64,000 nucleotides of DNA from a virus (IMGVR_UViG_3300028800_000001:263296-327295), one strand, 5' to 3'; counted from the stretch's first letter, positions 1,035-56,636 are shown. The notes: a model not told the origin generated them from the letters alone. A program made the numbers and translations.

Positions 1035-1144
1035 TCTCCTTGAATTAATTATTTTTTTATTTTCCCGCGTAAATCTCTTTACAAAATTAATTATATGCCA
1101 CTAGTATGTAAAAGACAAGCTTTTCTTCTATGAATATTCAGAAA
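1035..1144 (-). promoter_or_regulatory. promoter/leader for 241..1029: TTCTGAATATTCA element, then -35 TTGTCT, N17, -10 TATAAT, then TAATTTT, then AATAATTAATTCAAGGAGA leader
   Basis: Minus-strand reading ...ctgtatttctgaatattcatagaagaaaagcTTGTCTtttacatactagtggcaTATAATtaattttgtaaag...ataaaaaaataattaattcaaggagattattATG. The architecture is almost identical to 39589..39720. Confidence 0.5.
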
Positions 1145-1161
1145 TACAGAAAAGTGGTACT

Positions 1162-2103
1162 TTACGCATGTGGGTTTTTTGCACGATAGGGAATGCCCAA
1201 TGCTTTCAGCTTTTTTACGACTGCGGGTTTGATGTCAGAGCCGTTCTCAAAGACGACTTCAGCAATGTGAGACGTGTTGACGCCACCATGATATTGTGCT
1301 TCAGGGTACGTAGGAACTTCAGCAAGACTGGCATACTTGAGAGGGCTGTCATATTTGAGTGCTGCGAAGCCTGTATGATCTGGCTTTGAGAGTGCAGAAG
1401 GCAGCAAATAGCCAGCAGAAGAGAGTGAATCGTTGCCTGTCCAGGTTGTGTTGTCTTTTATACTCTCTTTTAAGCGTACGGAGACAGAGCCGTACATATC
1501 AACGGTGTCACCCCAACCGGCCTTTGTGGGATCAGCACTTTTGAGGCGTCCATCGCCGTCAGCCGAGAGATAGCCGTATATCGGACGATCTTCATCTTCA
1601 GTTTTCATTTGGTCGTAGCCAAAAAGGTCTTCTTCCACACTAGCGCGATGCCAAACATCCAATAATCCGCCAGATTTACCGGTTTCATGTTGTGATTTGA
1701 AGCGACCATCTGTCAACACCTTGCCGAGTATTTGTGGACGCACTCGTATCCAGGGCTGTGCATCCTTAAAGAGATCAACTGCTTTTTGATCAAGCGCTTT
1801 GGTGTAGTCTTCAACGCTCATGCCAGCTTTGGCTGCTTTAAATGCAAAGACCGTGGCCTTATTGTTGTTATACTTATCAATGATTGCTTGTGGTGGTTTG
1901 AGCTTTTGTAAAATCTTAGGCACAAGGTTATTGGGATGCAGTGGATTCTTCGGTCCTGGCGTTCTGGTGCCATCGCGTGCCACAATCAGGTGCGCTTCTC
2001 CTGCGGTAGAAAAGCGTCCAAGATGATCATGATGTGGGTTGTACTTCTCTTGAAGTTGCAGCACAAGACGTTTAATCAGCCGAATGTCTTTTTGAAAATA
2101 CAT
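1162..2103 (-). CDS. KYNPxH-leader module-family protein (313 aa), function unknown
   Basis: N-terminus LQLQEKYNPHHDHLGRFSTAGEAHLIVARDGTRTPGPKNPLHPNN. Core motifs PWIRVRP, GRFKSQHETGKSGG, LFGY, RPIYGYLS, YGSVSVRLK, TWTGNDSL, YPEAQYHGG, EVVF, GIPYRA. Confidence 0.65.
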   Translation of the reverse strand: MYFQKDIRLIKRLVLQLQEKYNPHHDHLGRFSTAGEAHLIVARDGTRTPGPKNPLHPNNLVPKILQKLKPPQAIIDKYNNNKATVFAFKAAKAGMSVEDYTKALDQKAVDLFKDAQPWIRVRPQILGKVLTDGRFKSQHETGKSGGLLDVWHRASVEEDLFGYDQMKTEDEDRPIYGYLSADGDGRLKSADPTKAGWGDTVDMYGSVSVRLKESIKDNTTWTGNDSLSSAGYLLPSALSKPDHTGFAALKYDSPLKYASLAEVPTYPEAQYHGGVNTSHIAEVVFENGSDIKPAVVKKLKALGIPYRAKNPHA

Positions 2104-2171
2104 ACAAATCTCCAGGCAGAAAAAAGTGTGGTTGCTTTTTATTTTGTGTGAAGATTTGTATGAACGAAGTT

Positions 2172-2444
2172 TTACGAAGCAGGAATGATTTTGACACCTT
2201 TGAGCAATTCTTCTAGCTTGTTTTGGTCACCATCATACTTTTGCCAGGGATCACGTGCTCCCAGCGATACTAAGGGAAGGGGTGGATACAGTGTTTTACT
2301 ATTGAGATCTAACACACACCCATATTTCAGGTCTTTGTTTCCGTGTTCTGGCACGTCGGCTGAGAGGACATAAAGATTGGGATCGTCAGGATGCGATGCA
2401 ATGATTGTTTGTTTTCCCATTGGGGGTTTCTCCTTACTATGCAA
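2172..2444 (-). CDS. small partner-family protein (90 aa) upstream of module-family gene 1162..2103
   Basis: KTLYPPLPLVSLGARDPWQKYDGDQNKLEELLKG matches the 11896..12174, 13008..13220 and 1..220 products. Confidence 0.5.
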   Translation of the reverse strand: MHSKEKPPMGKQTIIASHPDDPNLYVLSADVPEHGNKDLKYGCVLDLNSKTLYPPLPLVSLGARDPWQKYDGDQNKLEELLKGVKIIPAS

Positions 2445-2883
2445 CTTTCTTTACTACTACTAATAACAAATTTTTGAGTGCCAAAATTTCTGCATCCTGT
2501 GCTTCAAGATGCTTTTTTAGCTCTTCATTTTCATGAAAGATCTTGAGCGTGGTTTGATACGTTTCTTCCGCTTGCAATTGCTGATGTCTTCCTAACACGT
2601 CTTGCCCGACCGATAAAATTGATAAGGCAACTAATTGGATGAATGTCTGGCTTGTCCACTGCACATACTGATTGGCGGTTGCATGAAAACCAGGAAAGCC
2701 AAGGATGGCAAGAAATACAAAGAAGTAAGCACACCACATGTTGCTGAGCACATTGGTTACAAAAACCGCCACACGTTGATTGAAGCCACCTGCTTTGCGT
2801 TCTAATGCTTGCAACACATTGACGTTACGCACTTTGTGTGGGTGTTCTTTGTGTTCATATAAAGTTACTTTGTGATCACTCAT
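2437..2883 (-). CDS. membrane protein with 2 TM segments and an N-terminal coiled coil (148 aa), possibly lysis- or virion-associated
   Basis: Hydrophobic stretches FFVFLAILGFPGF and FIQLVALSILSVG; heptad-like N-terminus. Overlaps the stop of the upstream gene. Confidence 0.4.
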   Translation of the reverse strand: MSDHKVTLYEHKEHPHKVRNVNVLQALERKAGGFNQRVAVFVTNVLSNMWCAYFFVFLAILGFPGFHATANQYVQWTSQTFIQLVALSILSVGQDVLGRHQQLQAEETYQTTLKIFHENEELKKHLEAQDAEILALKNLLLVVVKKVA

Positions 2884-2896
2884 CGCTTCCTACTTC

Positions 2897-55118: not shown

Positions 55119-55469
55119 TTATTTTCCTTGTTTGTGATCGCGTAAAAATGTCCAGGTGAGCAGCGTCTCAGTTGTTGTGTGCTGTTGGATGATCAGGCAG
55201 TTGCCGGTTTCCAAGAAACAAAAGCTGGCATCAGGGTAGGTGATAAACAGTTCATAGTGTGGCGTTTCTATAGTGCAGCCTCCACTGTGCTGATCGCTTT
55301 CTTGTTCTATTACCTGTGCGCTCCATATTTCGCGATGACAATCGCTCCACTCATAGCCACCTCTATTTGAGAGCGCATGCCGGTGCAGTGTCCAGAGATA
55401 GCCATCAAGAAGCGCACGCAGCTTTTTATAGAATTGATCTTTGTTCTTATAGGTCAGTGGTTCAAACAC
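55119..55469 (-). CDS. hypothetical protein (116 aa)
   Basis: ORF track. Confidence 0.4.
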   Translation of the reverse strand: MFEPLTYKNKDQFYKKLRALLDGYLWTLHRHALSNRGGYEWSDCHREIWSAQVIEQESDQHSGGCTIETPHYELFITYPDASFCFLETGNCLIIQQHTTTETLLTWTFLRDHKQGK

Positions 55470-56082
55470 GTGTTAACTCCTCTTCAAAGTAATTGCTAGA
55501 GCTTCCATCGGGCTCTTCGTAGGTATAGACGGGAACGGCGCGCACATCGTCTGCAATAGTCATATTTTCTGGCGTTACGAGAAAGCAGGCACCTTCATGT
55601 AACCCTTCGAGAATACGGACGTACATGCCTGGGCCATAGGCAAAGCGCTCATGTGCCAGAACGTGATCTTTGAGCACGCTGTCTGTCCAATTGTGGTAGA
55701 GGCCGTGCACCAGCATGCGCACCGATTTGCTGTAAGAGATTGACACCCCAACTGTTCGGTAGTAGTTATCCAGCGCAAGGAGCCGCGCAATCTCTTCTTC
55801 GTTATAATCGCTTTGGCGTTTCGCAAGATACACCGGCTCCGCAAAGCAACCATCAAAGAGACGGTGGCACGCAGGACAGACGCCTTGTCCGTGGTCAAGT
55901 AAAGTGCGCAGAGGATGATAGGTAAAGCCAACATAAAGAAGTTGATCACCGCGCCACTGGCAGGAACAACGATAAAAGCTTGGGTTTGGGTCAAGAATAG
56001 AGGCCAGCGCCTCTGTATACTCATTCATAGGGGGGTCTCCTTTGTACAAAAGAGCTGGCAGGATTTTTCTCCTGCCAGCCAA
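55462..56082 (-). CDS. hypothetical Cys/His-rich protein (206 aa)
   Basis: ORF track. CSCQW...C..C...H pattern. Confidence 0.4.
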   Translation of the reverse strand: MAGRRKILPALLYKGDPPMNEYTEALASILDPNPSFYRCSCQWRGDQLLYVGFTYHPLRTLLDHGQGVCPACHRLFDGCFAEPVYLAKRQSDYNEEEIARLLALDNYYRTVGVSISYSKSVRMLVHGLYHNWTDSVLKDHVLAHERFAYGPGMYVRILEGLHEGACFLVTPENMTIADDVRAVPVYTYEEPDGSSSNYFEEELTRV

Positions 56083-56271
56083 TTACGATTGCTGTTGGTA
56101 GCCTTTGAGGATACCTTCGCGCAGCGCCGCTCTATCCTGGGCTTCTCGAAAGATAGTTTTGACGATGCGTTGAGTAATGGCGTCCTGGGCTTCCTCTGTA
56201 AAGAGGGGGTTGACGACGCGAATACTCATGCCGATAAGTGTTGCGCATTCTTGTAAGAATTGCTGATCCAT
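56083..56271 (-). CDS. hypothetical small protein (62 aa)
   Basis: ORF track. Confidence 0.3.
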   Translation of the reverse strand: MDQQFLQECATLIGMSIRVVNPLFTEEAQDAITQRIVKTIFREAQDRAALREGILKGYQQQS

Positions 56272-56275
56272 AGGT

Positions 56276-56497
56276 CTATTCCTTGATAACTAAAAGTGAG
56301 CACAAAAGTGCTGCAATAAAAAGAAAGGCAAGCATACGTTTGGTAATGCGACCACGTTCGCGGGTATCAATACCAATAGAGATGCCAGCGCTGCTACAGG
56401 CGCTCACAAATCCTAAAAAAAGAAGCAGTCTGGTTCCGCTCACGAGAGGTTCTCCTTTGTTTTCTCTCATTATGCGTTGTAGCGCATCTTTTCTCAA
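56276..56497 (-). CDS. small membrane protein (true start possibly the GTG after AAGGAG)
   Basis: TM LLLFLGFVSACSSAGISIGI and FLFIAALLCSLLVI. Driven by minus-strand TTGACA-N17-TATAGT at 56507-56535. Confidence 0.35.
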   Translation of the reverse strand: MRKDALQRIMRENKGEPLVSGTRLLLFLGFVSACSSAGISIGIDTRERGRITKRMLAFLFIAALLCSLLVIKE

Positions 56498-56506
56498 GCA
56501 TGTCTA

Positions 56507-56636
56507 ACTATAGGAGAAAAATGGGCACGTGTCAAGACTATTTTCTCTGTATTTTCAGAAGCAGGAGAATTCCACAGGTTTTTTCTGAATTTGGCCTGAA
56601 AAAGTATTGCAATAACGGATGGTGTCTGCTATAGTG
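56507..56636. promoter_or_regulatory. divergent promoters: minus TTGACA-N17-TATAGT with upstream TTCTGAAAATACA; plus TTGCAA (56608-56613), N17, TATAGT (56631-56636)
   Basis: Read directly. The plus promoter fires into the repeat field and the 56982 gene. Confidence 0.5.

What the first reader, a model, noticed from the sequence alone, without database searches (positions are those of the whole stretch)
1114..56560. TTCTGAAAATACA element about 10 nt upstream of the -35 of minus-strand sigma70-type promoters (6 copies, all in the same orientation)
Plus-strand TG(T/A)AT(T/A)TTCAGAA occurs at 1131-1144, 39694-39706, 46679-46691, 50368-50380, 52906-52918 and 56548-56560. In five copies the minus strand reads TTCTGAAAATACA-N9-11-TTG(A/T)C(N)-N17-TATA(A/C/G)T, a position typical of an UP element or class I activator site. 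At 46.7 kb the element sits between back-to-back divergent promoters. The strict conservation suggests a dedicated factor-binding site rather than a generic A-tract.
Basis: seen in the sequence. Interest (0 to 1): 0.55.

Follow-up and report, generated by a model that had tools for sequence, protein, structure and literature searches.

The report
Conserved upstream box of phage promoters
An uncultivated giant phage puts the same invariant 13-base box, followed by an A-rich stretch, exactly 12 bases upstream of most of its host-type promoters, and this most likely marks where a dedicated regulator docks next to RNA polymerase; it is a new example of a familiar kind of control site, not a new kind.

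Summary
All six copies sit at the stated coordinates (0.02 expected by chance), all between genes.

- The gap to the -35 hexamer is exactly 12 nt, not 9-11.
- Orientation follows the direction of transcription. A seventh copy (24614-24626, + strand) heads the + strand replication genes, and a degenerate eighth (56583-56595, +) heads an IS110-like gene.
- The 52.9-kb copy is not upstream of a promoter. It lies 10 nt downstream of an extended -10 (TATGGTATACT).

The window belongs to a jumbo phage of about 327 kb with no cultured relative. In 81 kb (window plus flanks) there are 9 box-plus-promoter units and 2 box-only copies, and nearly all strong sigma70/sigmaA-like promoters carry the box.

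In two related phages (about 50% protein identity) the box survives at orthologous promoters while the flanks diverge. The -10-plus-box unit is 20/20 identical in all three. One bidirectional promoter pair in a relative shares a perfect 17-bp palindrome.

Best reading (about 0.5): an operator for a sequence-specific regulator acting from the UP-element position (-60 to -36), and repressing where it overlaps a transcription start. Main rival (about 0.25): a pure UP element. CodY, stoperator and phage-polymerase-promoter readings are weaker.

The parts
56548..56560 (-). Box TTCTGAAAATACA. Followed by GAGAAAATAGTC (56536-56547), -35 TTGACA (56530-56535) and -10 TATAGT (56507-56512). Heads an operon of small genes.
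56583..56595 (+). Degenerate box TTCTGAATTTGGC, 11 nt upstream of TTGCAA (56607-56612)-17-TATAGT (56630-56635). Divergent from the 56548 unit. Heads the leader and gene of an IS110-like protein. In relative L256 these two units share one palindromic box.
52906..52918 (-). Box TTCTGAAAATACA plus GAGAAAATTTTA (52894-52905) with no promoter downstream. It lies 10 nt downstream of the extended -10 TATGGTATACT (52929-52939) and 50 nt from the ATG at 52868 of the 366-aa membrane/HTH protein. The -10 and 20 nt of box are identical in three phages.
50368..50380 (-). Box, then AAGAATATTTTC, -35 TTGACT (50350-50355) and -10 TATACT (50327-50332). Immediately preceded by an intrinsic terminator (50389-50410).
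46679..46691 (-). Box, then TGGTAAAAATAC, -35 TTGACG (46661-46666) and -10 TATACT (46638-46643). On the other side, 8 nt away, is the divergent + strand promoter TTGACA-17-TATACT (46700-46728).
39694..39706 (-). Box, then GTGAAAAAATGC, -35 TTGTCT (39676-39681) and -10 TATAAT (39653-39658). Preceded by a terminator hairpin (39712-39745). Heads the RecT-like gene (38401-39588).
24614..24626 (+). Box variant TTCTGAAAATACC, 10 nt upstream of TTGACT (24637-24642)-17-TATACT (24660-24665). Heads the + strand block that contains the intein-bearing helicase.
1131..1143 (-). Box variant TTCTGAATATTCA, then TAGAAGAAAAGC, -35 TTGTCT (1113-1118) and -10 TATAAT (1090-1095). Heads the DUF3626 gene (241-1029) and, in the left flank, the operon that contains the large terminase.

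Best explanation
The element is the shared cis-regulatory box of this phage's host-RNA-polymerase (sigma70/sigmaA-type) promoters. It is an asymmetric unit of about 25 bp. An invariant 13-mer, TTCTGAAAATACA, occupies -60 to -48. A second, looser GAAAAT-type A-tract starts 11 bp further on (G at -45, As at -44 to -41), and a C sits at -36.

Most likely it is the operator of a sequence-specific DNA-binding regulator. That regulator would sit on one face of the helix next to the polymerase alpha-CTD and sigma region 4, in class I / UP-position geometry, and tune most transcription units of the phage together. Where the same box lies across the start site of a -10-only promoter (52.9 kb), it would repress.

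Shown: the motif, its spacing, its orientation rule, its exclusivity to promoter regions, and its purifying selection across three phages.

Inferred: that a protein other than the alpha-CTD reads it; the sign of regulation; and the identity of the factor. One candidate is the 366-aa protein encoded directly behind the 52.9-kb box, which has four N-terminal hydrophobic segments and a C-terminal helix-turn-helix. Its putative recognition helix is co-conserved with the box.
For: 1. Non-random and specific. There are 6 exact-pattern copies against 0.02 expected. In 81.4 kb (window plus flanks) the core TTCWGAAWAT occurs 12 times. Eleven of these are the box copies, all in promoter or intergenic regions. 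The twelfth is the opposite-strand reading across the 39.7-kb box and its left flank.

2. Fixed geometry. The gap to the -35 is 12 nt in 8 of 9 units and 10 nt in one, and spacers are 17 nt. The box always points with the downstream genes, 3 on + and 8 on -.

3. Information profile. Box positions 1-13 score 1.0-1.7 bits each, with an abrupt left edge (0.6 bit or less upstream). G16 and A18 are also high. This exceeds the -35 and -10 hexamers, while the 17-nt spacers are unconserved, so the copies are not recent duplicates.

4. It marks the promoter class. 9 of 17 hits scoring at least 10/12 against the sigma70 consensus carry it. By my ORF map, most of the remaining hits lie inside genes.

5. 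Phylogenetic footprint. In relatives L256 and L258 (RecT-like 55%, 366-aa protein 47-50% identical) the box persists at orthologous promoters:
- recT: TTCTGAATATTGA-N12-TTGACA.
- post-amidase: TTCTGAAAATACT-N11-TTGCCA, with the divergent partner also kept.
- 56.5-kb locus: one perfect palindrome GTATTTTCAGAAAATAC serves two divergent promoters, each 11-12 nt from its -35.

6. The box downstream of TATG(G/C)TATACT is 20/20 identical in three phages within an otherwise diverged spacer. A polymerase alpha-CTD site has no role there, but an operator does.

7. Candidate factor. The gene behind that operator encodes a protein whose C-terminal DQM(I/L)xDxLQ(V/C)DIISAR(R/Q)W is nearly invariant in the three phages. 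It aligns with the Pfam HTH_17 domain of distant homologues. It is modelled as a confident three-helix unit (pLDDT 89-95, residues 266-307), and that unit's only local structural matches are HTH DNA-binding domains. Distant homologues with a different helix lack the box upstream.
Against: - No binding experiment and no transcription start data exist. The host is unknown.
- The promoters have near-consensus -35 and -10 hexamers and would not need an activator.
- The two A-tracts lie where alpha-CTD subsites lie, and TCTGAAAAT sits within 1 nt of where TCAGAAAAT sits in the E. coli rrnB P1 UP element, so direct alpha-CTD recognition could explain the 9 promoter-linked copies.
- The candidate factor is circumstantial. 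Pfam does not call an HTH in it. The fold matches are not significant (E > 0.3). A membrane anchor is unusual for a regulator of many promoters.
- The other HTH_17 protein nearby (269 aa) is only 24% identical between phages that share an identical box, so it is a poor candidate.
- In relatives the 3' half of the box (ATACA) varies at some promoters, and in some promoters a CTGAAAA-type element abuts the -35 instead. That flexibility is UP-like.
Confidence: 0.5

Rival explanations
1. Pure UP element. The box and the following A-tract are the distal and proximal docking sites of the two RNA polymerase alpha-CTDs. They simply make the phage's host-type promoters very strong, and no extra factor is involved.
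For: - Position: A-tracts at -55 to -52 and -44 to -41, 11 bp apart, in the -60 to -36 window.
- The spacing to the -35 is fixed.
- The proximal block GAGAAAAT resembles the proximal UP subsite consensus AAAAAARNR (own knowledge: Estrem et al.).
- E. coli rrnB P1 reads GGTCAGAAAATTATTTTAAATTTCCTCTTGTCA. TCAGAAAAT therefore starts 25 nt before the -35, against 24 nt for TCTGAAAAT here.
- In relatives a CTGAAAA(A)TAC element can sit either at the distal position or directly abutting the -35, as UP subsites do.
- The promoters have near-consensus hexamers, typical of strong early promoters.
Against: - UP elements are degenerate A/T-rich sequences read mainly through the minor groove. Here the G/C positions (C3, G5, C12) are invariant or nearly so across 11 copies, and the element is more conserved than the core hexamers.
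- The distal T-tract of the UP consensus is absent.
- Two copies have no core promoter downstream. One of them, placed after a -10, is conserved 20/20 in three phages, and an UP element there has no known function.
Confidence: 0.25
2. Multi-copy asymmetric repressor operator or 'stoperator', in the style of mycobacteriophage L5 gp71, P1 C1 or phi105. A repressor bound at the oriented 13-bp sites silences promoters and blocks readthrough between transcription units, with no activation role.
For: - The site is a 13-bp asymmetric sequence present in many dispersed copies, all intergenic, and always in one orientation relative to transcription. These are the hallmarks described for L5/L1, P1 and phi105 operators (PMC1934351).
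- Four copies directly follow intrinsic terminators, with hairpins of -14.6 to -15.1 kcal/mol.
- Two copies lie inside transcription units or at a start site.
Against: - A roadblock or occluding operator needs no exact 12-nt register with the -35, yet 8 of 9 copies have it.
- A site at -60 to -48 does not overlap the polymerase core contacts.
- No integrase, immunity repressor or Xre/CI-type HTH was found in the ORFs scanned.
- The genome is a phage of about 327 kb, most likely lytic.
Confidence: 0.12
3. Host CodY box (consensus AATTTTCWGAAAATT) or the site of a similar host global regulator. The phage would wire its promoters to the nutritional state of a Bacillota host.
For: - The centre and right arm, TTCTGAAAAT, match 10 consecutive consensus positions (consensus from PMC5314169). 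Full 15-mers have 2-5 mismatches, a range often quoted for functional CodY sites (own knowledge).
- The palindromic version in relative L256, TATTTTCAGAAAATA, matches 13 of 15.
- Hints of a Gram-positive host: a TRTGn extended -10, strong AAGGAG ribosome-binding sites, and nearest endolysin amidase matches all from phages of Gram-positive hosts.
Against: - The left arm is not conserved, at 0.1-0.6 bit and 1-4 mismatches in 7 positions. Its T-richness in several copies comes from terminator U-tracts.
- Conservation extends instead to ATACA-GAGAAAA on the right, outside the CodY box.
- At the three-phage footprint the left arm differs in every phage.
- CodY mostly represses from sites overlapping promoters.
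- The host is unknown.
- No literature was found on CodY control of lytic phage promoters.
Confidence: 0.06
4. The box is itself a promoter for a phage-encoded RNA polymerase or sigma factor. It would lie in tandem with a host-type promoter in most units and stand alone in the box-only copies.
For: - Two copies have no sigma70-type hexamers downstream and lie 37-50 nt before a start codon with a ribosome-binding site.
- The conserved block of about 20 nt followed by purine-rich GAGAAA loosely recalls T7/SP6-type promoters (own knowledge).
Against: - No RNA polymerase or sigma gene was found among the ORFs scanned in the window.
- The nucleotide after the 13-mer varies (G/A/T/C).
- The strict 12-nt register with the -35 is unexplained by mere tandem placement.
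- At 52.9 kb a conserved extended -10 just upstream already provides a promoter.
Confidence: 0.04

Closest known systems
UP elements of strong bacterial and phage promoters (E. coli rrnB P1; B. subtilis sigmaA promoters with phased A-tracts; phi29 A2c/A2b/C2; T4 early promoters)
   Same: Located at -60 to -36, with A-tracts one helical turn apart and a fixed register with the -35. Associated with near-consensus, presumably strong promoters. TCTGAAAAT lies within 1 nt of the position of TCAGAAAAT in rrnB P1.
   Different: The 13-mer is invariant, including its G/C positions, and has a sharp 5' boundary. It is more conserved than the core hexamers. The same sequence also occurs, under strong purifying selection, downstream of a -10 where an UP element cannot act.
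Class I activator sites and dual regulators that contact the alpha-CTD (CRP at -61.5; MarA/SoxS; phi29 p4, which activates A3 and represses A2b/A2c)
   Same: A sequence-specific site upstream of the -35 at a fixed phase. The same site type can sit at an activating position in some promoters and a repressing position in another. It is shared between divergent promoters (46.7 kb; palindrome in L256).
   Different: The promoters already have good -35 hexamers. No cognate factor is identified. The site is asymmetric, with a direct GAAAAT repeat, and is centred near -54 rather than -61.5.
Multi-copy asymmetric operators of L5/L1 gp71 ('stoperators'), P1 C1 and phi105 repressor (PMC1934351)
   Same: A 13-bp asymmetric site present in many copies spread through the genome. 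Copies are intergenic and oriented with transcription, and a few are single-base variants.
   Different: Here 9 of 11 copies sit at one exact distance upstream of a -35 rather than over promoters or inside operons. No lysogeny functions were seen.
CodY box AATTTTCWGAAAATT (PMC5314169)
   Same: TTCWGAAAAT is shared, and a palindromic variant in a relative matches 13 of 15 positions.
   Different: The left arm is not conserved, conservation extends 3' beyond the box, and the site has a fixed upstream position and orientation.

Membership tests
UP element (alpha-CTD binding site) | A/T-rich DNA between about -60 and -38, directly upstream of the -35 of a sigma70-type promoter | tested here: met
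   In 9 units the box spans -60 to -48 and an A-tract spans -44 to -41.
UP element (alpha-CTD binding site) | Match to the subsite consensus (proximal AAAAAARNR, distal AWWWWWTTTTT) with degenerate, A/T-only information | tested here: not met
   The proximal A-tract fits. The distal T-tract is absent. Invariant C3, G5 and C12 carry the highest information in the region, 1.35-1.68 bits.
UP element (alpha-CTD binding site) | Occurs only upstream of a core promoter | tested here: not met
   Two box-only copies exist: 52906-52918, and the left flank (L015 16495-16507). The former lies after a -10 and is 20/20 conserved in three phages.
UP element (alpha-CTD binding site) | Bound by the alpha-CTD, with alpha-CTD-dependent stimulation of transcription | not testable with these tools
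   Needs footprinting or in vitro transcription.
Transcription-factor operator / class I-type site | Discrete, sharply bounded, sequence-specific motif under purifying selection | tested here: met
   Information profile. Retention at orthologous promoters in phages with about 50% protein identity, while the flanks diverge.
Transcription-factor operator / class I-type site | Fixed helical phase relative to the -35 | tested here: met
   The gap is 12 nt in 8 of 9 copies and 10 nt in one. In relatives it is 11-12 nt.
Transcription-factor operator / class I-type site | A cognate DNA-binding protein identified | tested here: inconclusive
   The candidate is the 366-aa membrane/HTH protein. Its helix is co-conserved with the box, and the three-helix model is confident. 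But Pfam finds no HTH in it and the fold matches are not significant. The 269-aa HTH_17 protein is too divergent.
CodY box | 15-bp dyad AATTTTCWGAAAATT with both arms conserved | tested here: not met
   The right arm has 1 mismatch in every copy. The left arm has 1-4 mismatches and 0.6 bit or less of information, and it differs among the three phages at the best-conserved site.
CodY box | Host encodes CodY (Bacillota) | not testable with these tools
   The host is unknown. There are only indirect Gram-positive hints.
L5-type stoperators / asymmetric multi-copy operators | Asymmetric site of about 13 bp, many dispersed intergenic copies, one orientation relative to transcription | tested here: met
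   11 copies in 81 kb, all oriented with the downstream genes. Description of the family is from PMC1934351.
L5-type stoperators / asymmetric multi-copy operators | Sites overlap promoters or lie within operons, and a temperate lifestyle with a repressor gene is present | tested here: not met
   9 of 11 copies lie at -60 to -48, clear of the core promoter. No integrase or CI/Xre-type repressor was found in the ORFs scanned. The rest of the 327-kb genome was not seen.
Promoter of a phage-encoded RNA polymerase or sigma | Phage encodes its own polymerase or sigma, and the motif stands at transcription starts independently of host hexamers | tested here: not met
   No such gene was found in the window. 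9 of 11 copies are coupled to canonical -35/-10 hexamers. Only about a quarter of the genome was examined.

The most novel reading that the evidence does not exclude
The box is read by the phage's own membrane-anchored helix-turn-helix protein. This is the 366-aa product of 51768-52868, encoded directly behind the best-conserved box and next to a HerA/FtsK-like ATPase. Binding at -54 of most promoters of a jumbo phage would tether the transcription units to the membrane and co-regulate them. Binding across its own start site would autoregulate it. That would be a genome-wide, membrane-coupled promoter code not described for phages.
Probability: 0.12. Interest if true: 0.65.

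Novelty: new member of a known kind. Interest (0 to 1): 0.4.

Why it matters
The box gives a ready-made promoter code for an uncultivated lineage of jumbo phages of about 327 kb. With it, transcription units can be delimited from sequence alone, as terminator, box, -35 and -10. Relatives can be recognised in metagenomes.

It also offers a concrete regulatory hypothesis: one factor acting on most host-polymerase promoters, possibly autoregulated. This can be tested with a 25-bp oligonucleotide.

If the partner is only the alpha-CTD, the box is an unusually information-rich UP element that could be useful for promoter engineering. 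If the partner is a dedicated factor, it defines a new regulator-operator pair.

Tried and rejected
- **Cultured relatives.** Megablast of 21 kb and tblastn of two proteins against 50,697 phage records gave nothing. The RecT-like protein's best hit, Tunturiibacter phage Tunturi_5 (29.5% identity, GC 58%), has no box.
- **IMG/VR.** The pattern scan gave 13 single, unrelated hits, and the protein-based scan gave none.
- **Metagenome and genome scans** for box-N10-12-TTGAC. These returned 112 and 120 stretches, both capped and overwhelmingly chance singles spread across phyla.
  - Useful hits: L112 (the same phage) and the phage-like contigs L026, L049, L072, L065 and L081 (GC 44%), each with a box-promoter unit. 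I could not show whether these belong to the relative's genome.
  - No bacterial taxon showed a regulon-like excess. Four Lysinibacillus hits are one orthologous promoter in front of what I read as a cysteine synthase gene.
- **CodY identity.** Rejected on the left-arm test.
- **RNA-level role.** No Rfam family and no tRNA were found in the window. In 9 copies the box lies upstream of its own promoter, so it is not in that transcript.
- **Alternative sigma or ECF readings.** I compared the box by eye with -35/-10 consensus sequences recalled from memory and found no fit.
- **269-aa HTH_17 protein as the factor.** Disfavoured, because it is only 24% identical between phages that share an identical box.
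- **More distant homologues of the 366-aa protein** (L259, L260). The genomic context is different and there is no box.
- **Repeats at 57.9-60.4 kb.** A regex written to count them matched nothing there, so the repeats are described only.

Full report
**Observation.** The pattern TGWATWTTCAGAA occurs six times in the window, at exactly the reported positions and all on one strand. Dinucleotide-preserving shuffles give 0.02 expected.

Read on the minus strand, five copies have the form TTCTGAA(A/T)AT(A/T)CA, then 12 nt, then TTG(A/T)CN, then 17 nt, then TATA(A/C/G)T. I re-read every element base by base. The gap to the -35 is 12 nt in all five, not 9-11.

Allowing mismatches adds a copy on the + strand at 24614-24626 (TTCTGAAAATACC). 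It lies 10 nt before TTGACT-17-TATACT, at the head of the + strand block that contains the helicase. A degenerate copy, TTCTGAATTTGGC at 56583-56595 (+), lies 11 nt before TTGCAA-17-TATAGT. Orientation therefore follows transcription and is not fixed to one strand.

The back-to-back promoter at 46.7 kb is real: TTGACA-17-TATACT at 46700-46728 on the + strand, 8 nt from the box.

The 52.9-kb copy differs from the rest. There is no -35 or -10 after it, and the start codon is 50 nt from the start of the box.

**What the sequence is.** No nucleotide or protein match exists to 50,697 deposited phage genomes for the pieces I tried. Identical proteins occur on metagenome contigs of 37, 73.5 and 327 kb. 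A large terminase lies just left of the window. The window holds an intein-bearing helicase, a RecT-like protein, an endolysin amidase, two DpdA-like enzymes and five DUF3626 paralogues. This is an uncultivated jumbo phage.

I joined 8.1 kb of left flank and 9.3 kb of right flank to the window, giving 81.4 kb.

**Census in 81.4 kb.** There are nine box-plus-promoter units. The gap is 12 nt in eight and 10 nt in one, and all spacers are 17 nt. There are also two box-only copies.

The 10-mer core TTCWGAAWAT occurs 12 times. Eleven are these copies, and the twelfth is the opposite-strand reading across the 39.7-kb box and its left flank.

All copies lie between genes, both in my ORF map and in the assemblies' own gene calls. 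All point with the downstream genes, three on + and eight on -.

Of 17 sites that match the sigma70 consensus in at least 10 of 12 positions, nine carry the box. By my ORF map, most of the others lie inside genes. The clear intergenic exceptions are the divergent partner at 46700 and the promoter at 54532.

Four copies directly follow strong terminator hairpins of -14.6 to -15.1 kcal/mol. The typical module is therefore terminator, box, -35, -10.

The units head operons of many kinds: replication, recombination, small early-type genes, and the operon that contains the terminase. The box thus marks the phage's host-type promoters in general, not a narrow regulon.

**Anatomy.** An information profile over the 11 copies shows 1.0-1.7 bits at each of the 13 box positions. 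The left edge is abrupt, with 0.6 bit or less upstream. Further conserved positions are G16, A17-18, A20-22 and C25, followed by the -35 and -10. The spacer between the hexamers carries no information.

The copies therefore share a selected block of about 25 bp rather than recent common descent. With the -35 at -35 to -30, the box spans -60 to -48. The two GAAAAT hexamers start 11 bp apart (G at -56 and -45), with their A runs at -55 to -52 and -44 to -41. This puts them on one face of the helix and in the classic UP-element window.

**Relatives.** The RecT-like and 366-aa proteins have homologues of 55% and 47-50% identity on syntenic contigs from the same and other samples. At orthologous promoters the box survives while the surrounding DNA has diverged.

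- The recT promoter of L256 reads TTCTGAATATTGA-N12-TTGACA-17-GATACT. This is the same variant type as the window's 1131 copy.
- The post-amidase locus keeps TTCTGAAAATACT-N11-TTGCCA-17-TATACT, together with its divergent partner.
- At the locus orthologous to 56.5 kb, L256 has one perfect 17-bp palindrome, GTATTTTCAGAAAATAC. It lies 12 nt from TTGACT on one strand and 11 nt from TTGCAA on the other. Each promoter therefore sees a GAAAATAC half-site pointing at it.
- In some promoters of the relatives a CTGAAAA(A)TAC element abuts the -35 directly.

The most telling case is the 52.9-kb copy. In all three phages the spacer between the MazG gene and the 366-aa gene has diverged except for two islands. 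One is TATG(G/C)TATACT, an extended -10 of the TRTGn type without a usable -35. The other, 7-10 nt downstream, is TTCTGAAAATACAGAGAAAA, identical at 20 of 20 positions. A ribosome-binding site follows within 15-30 nt, so the start site must lie at or just before the box.

**Interpretation.** The promoter-linked copies alone could be an UP element. The A-tract positions fit. The E. coli rrnB P1 sequence GGTCAGAAAATTATTTTAAATTTCCTCTTGTCA has TCAGAAAAT starting 25 nt before its -35, against 24 nt for TCTGAAAAT here.

Three facts argue for a sequence-specific protein:
- The G/C positions are invariant and the boundary is sharp, with more information than the core hexamers carry.
- The asymmetric box becomes a perfect palindrome only where two promoters share it.
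- The identical 20-mer is under the strongest selection at a position downstream of a -10, where an alpha-CTD site has no role but an operator would repress.

I therefore rank a regulator operator placed in the UP/class I position first, at about 0.5, and a pure UP element second, at about 0.25. The sign of regulation at the nine promoters is not known. Their near-consensus hexamers mean activation is not required.

**Other readings.**
- *CodY.* The resemblance to the CodY box AATTTTCWGAAAATT is limited to the centre and right arm. The left arm is unconserved and differs in each phage at the best site, while conservation runs on into ATACAGAGAAAA.
- *Stoperator.* The L5/P1/phi105 type of multi-copy asymmetric operator shares the 13-bp asymmetry, the dispersal and the orientation rule. 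It does not explain the exact 12-nt register, and I saw no lysogeny genes.
- *Phage-polymerase promoter.* This is unsupported. No polymerase or sigma gene was found, the base after the 13-mer varies, and canonical hexamers follow in 9 of 11 copies.

**Candidate factor.** This part is inference. The gene behind the conserved operator encodes a 366-aa protein with four long hydrophobic segments, an acidic linker and a C-terminal segment, DQMIADHLQVDIISARRWKEKA. That segment is nearly invariant in the three phages and aligns with the Pfam HTH_17 domain of distant homologues.

AlphaFold models residues 266-307 as three helices at pLDDT 89-95. Local structural matches are all HTH DNA-binding domains, though none is significant. 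Distant homologues with a different helix have no box upstream.

This is co-conservation, not proof. Pfam itself calls no HTH in the phage proteins. The nearby 269-aa HTH_17 protein is only 24% identical between phages that have identical boxes, which makes it a poor candidate.

**Host.** The host is unknown. The TRTGn extended -10, the strong AAGGAG ribosome-binding sites, and endolysin matches found only in phages of Gram-positive hosts hint at a Gram-positive host, possibly Bacillota.

**Verdict.** This is a real and statistically solid promoter-associated box, a new motif of a familiar kind. It is useful as the promoter code of a new jumbo-phage lineage. Interest is moderate.

Noticed in passing
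window 46735-47011 (+): The divergent partner promoter at 46.7 kb drives about 275 nt with no convincing ORF, ending in a strong terminator (46979-47011). The stretch is conserved at nucleotide level in two relatives whose neighbouring proteins are about 50% identical, with indels that are not multiples of three. RNAalifold predicts a closing long-range helix and several compensatory pairs. No Rfam family matches. It is a candidate new phage non-coding RNA.
   Followed up: partly
window 56607-57866 (+): A 294-aa protein with an IS110-family Transposase_20 domain is 91% identical to its syntenic counterpart in the relative phage, while neighbouring proteins are 24-55% identical. Its non-coding leader of about 350 nt holds a block of about 120 nt that is about 94% identical between the two phages. 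This may be a bridge-RNA-like leader of an IS110-type recombinase (from my own knowledge of that family). There is no Rfam hit.
   Followed up: partly
window 57867-60407: A stretch of about 2.5 kb has no called genes, a drop in GC (0.41) and strong GC skew (+0.22). It is filled with families of degenerate direct repeats, for example AGTTTTTCA-N11-GTATGAGTCA in 7 copies and three 68-nt units at 59044-59281. The same repeat and promoter-like units occur at the matching place in relative L256. A regex I wrote to count the repeats matched none there.
   Followed up: partly
window 241-1029, 1162-2103, 6811-9870, 12188-13168, 13223-14170; 15757-16665, 18293-19141, 19141-19995: There are five paralogues of DUF3626/phrog_8314 in one long minus-strand block. 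There are also two DpdA-like (queuine tRNA-ribosyltransferase-like) genes next to a ParB-like nuclease gene. Together these suggest 7-deazaguanine modification of the phage DNA. A Macro-domain gene lies in the right flank.
   Followed up: no
window 1029-1143 vs 39588-39706; left flank (L015 about 16780-16884) vs window 46592-46691: Pairs of promoters share their whole 5' leaders as well as the box. One pair shares TATAATTAATTTT...AAAATAATTAATTCAAGGAGA. The other shares TGTATAAGAAATAAACGAAAAC. These look like duplicated promoter-leader modules or a second, leader-level control element.
   Followed up: no
window 50409-52868 (-): A gene pair is conserved in all relatives. One gene encodes a protein with four hydrophobic segments and a C-terminal HTH-like domain plus a basic RGRP/KRGxK tail. 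The other encodes a 449-aa protein with a weak HerA/DUF87 ATPase signature. Distant homologues of the pair sit in mobile-element-like contexts.
   Followed up: partly
window 25984-28560 (+): The replicative helicase gene carries an intein (Pfam Intein_splicing and PT-HINT between the helicase motifs). The relative's helicase is 551 aa and shows no intein domains.
   Followed up: no
L173 5253-5281; also L136, L200, L214 (Lysinibacillus genomes): The exact 13-mer TTCTGAAAATACA lies 11 nt upstream of TTGACA-18-TAAAAT, in front of a gene I read as a cysteine synthase (cysK-like), in four Lysinibacillus genomes. It is flanked by an ATAAATA/TATTTAT inverted repeat. This is probably an unrelated host operator, but it was the only recurrent bacterial hit.
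   Followed up: partly
L026, L049, L072 (JGI Ga0265324); L065, L081: Phage-like contigs (GC 44%; LPD29 polyvalent-protein domain, a GntR regulator, a C5 methylase) carry the exact box 11-12 nt upstream of TTGAC-17-TATAnT, but show no similarity to the 81 kb examined. They may be other parts of the relative's genome or further phages using the same promoter code.
   Followed up: partly
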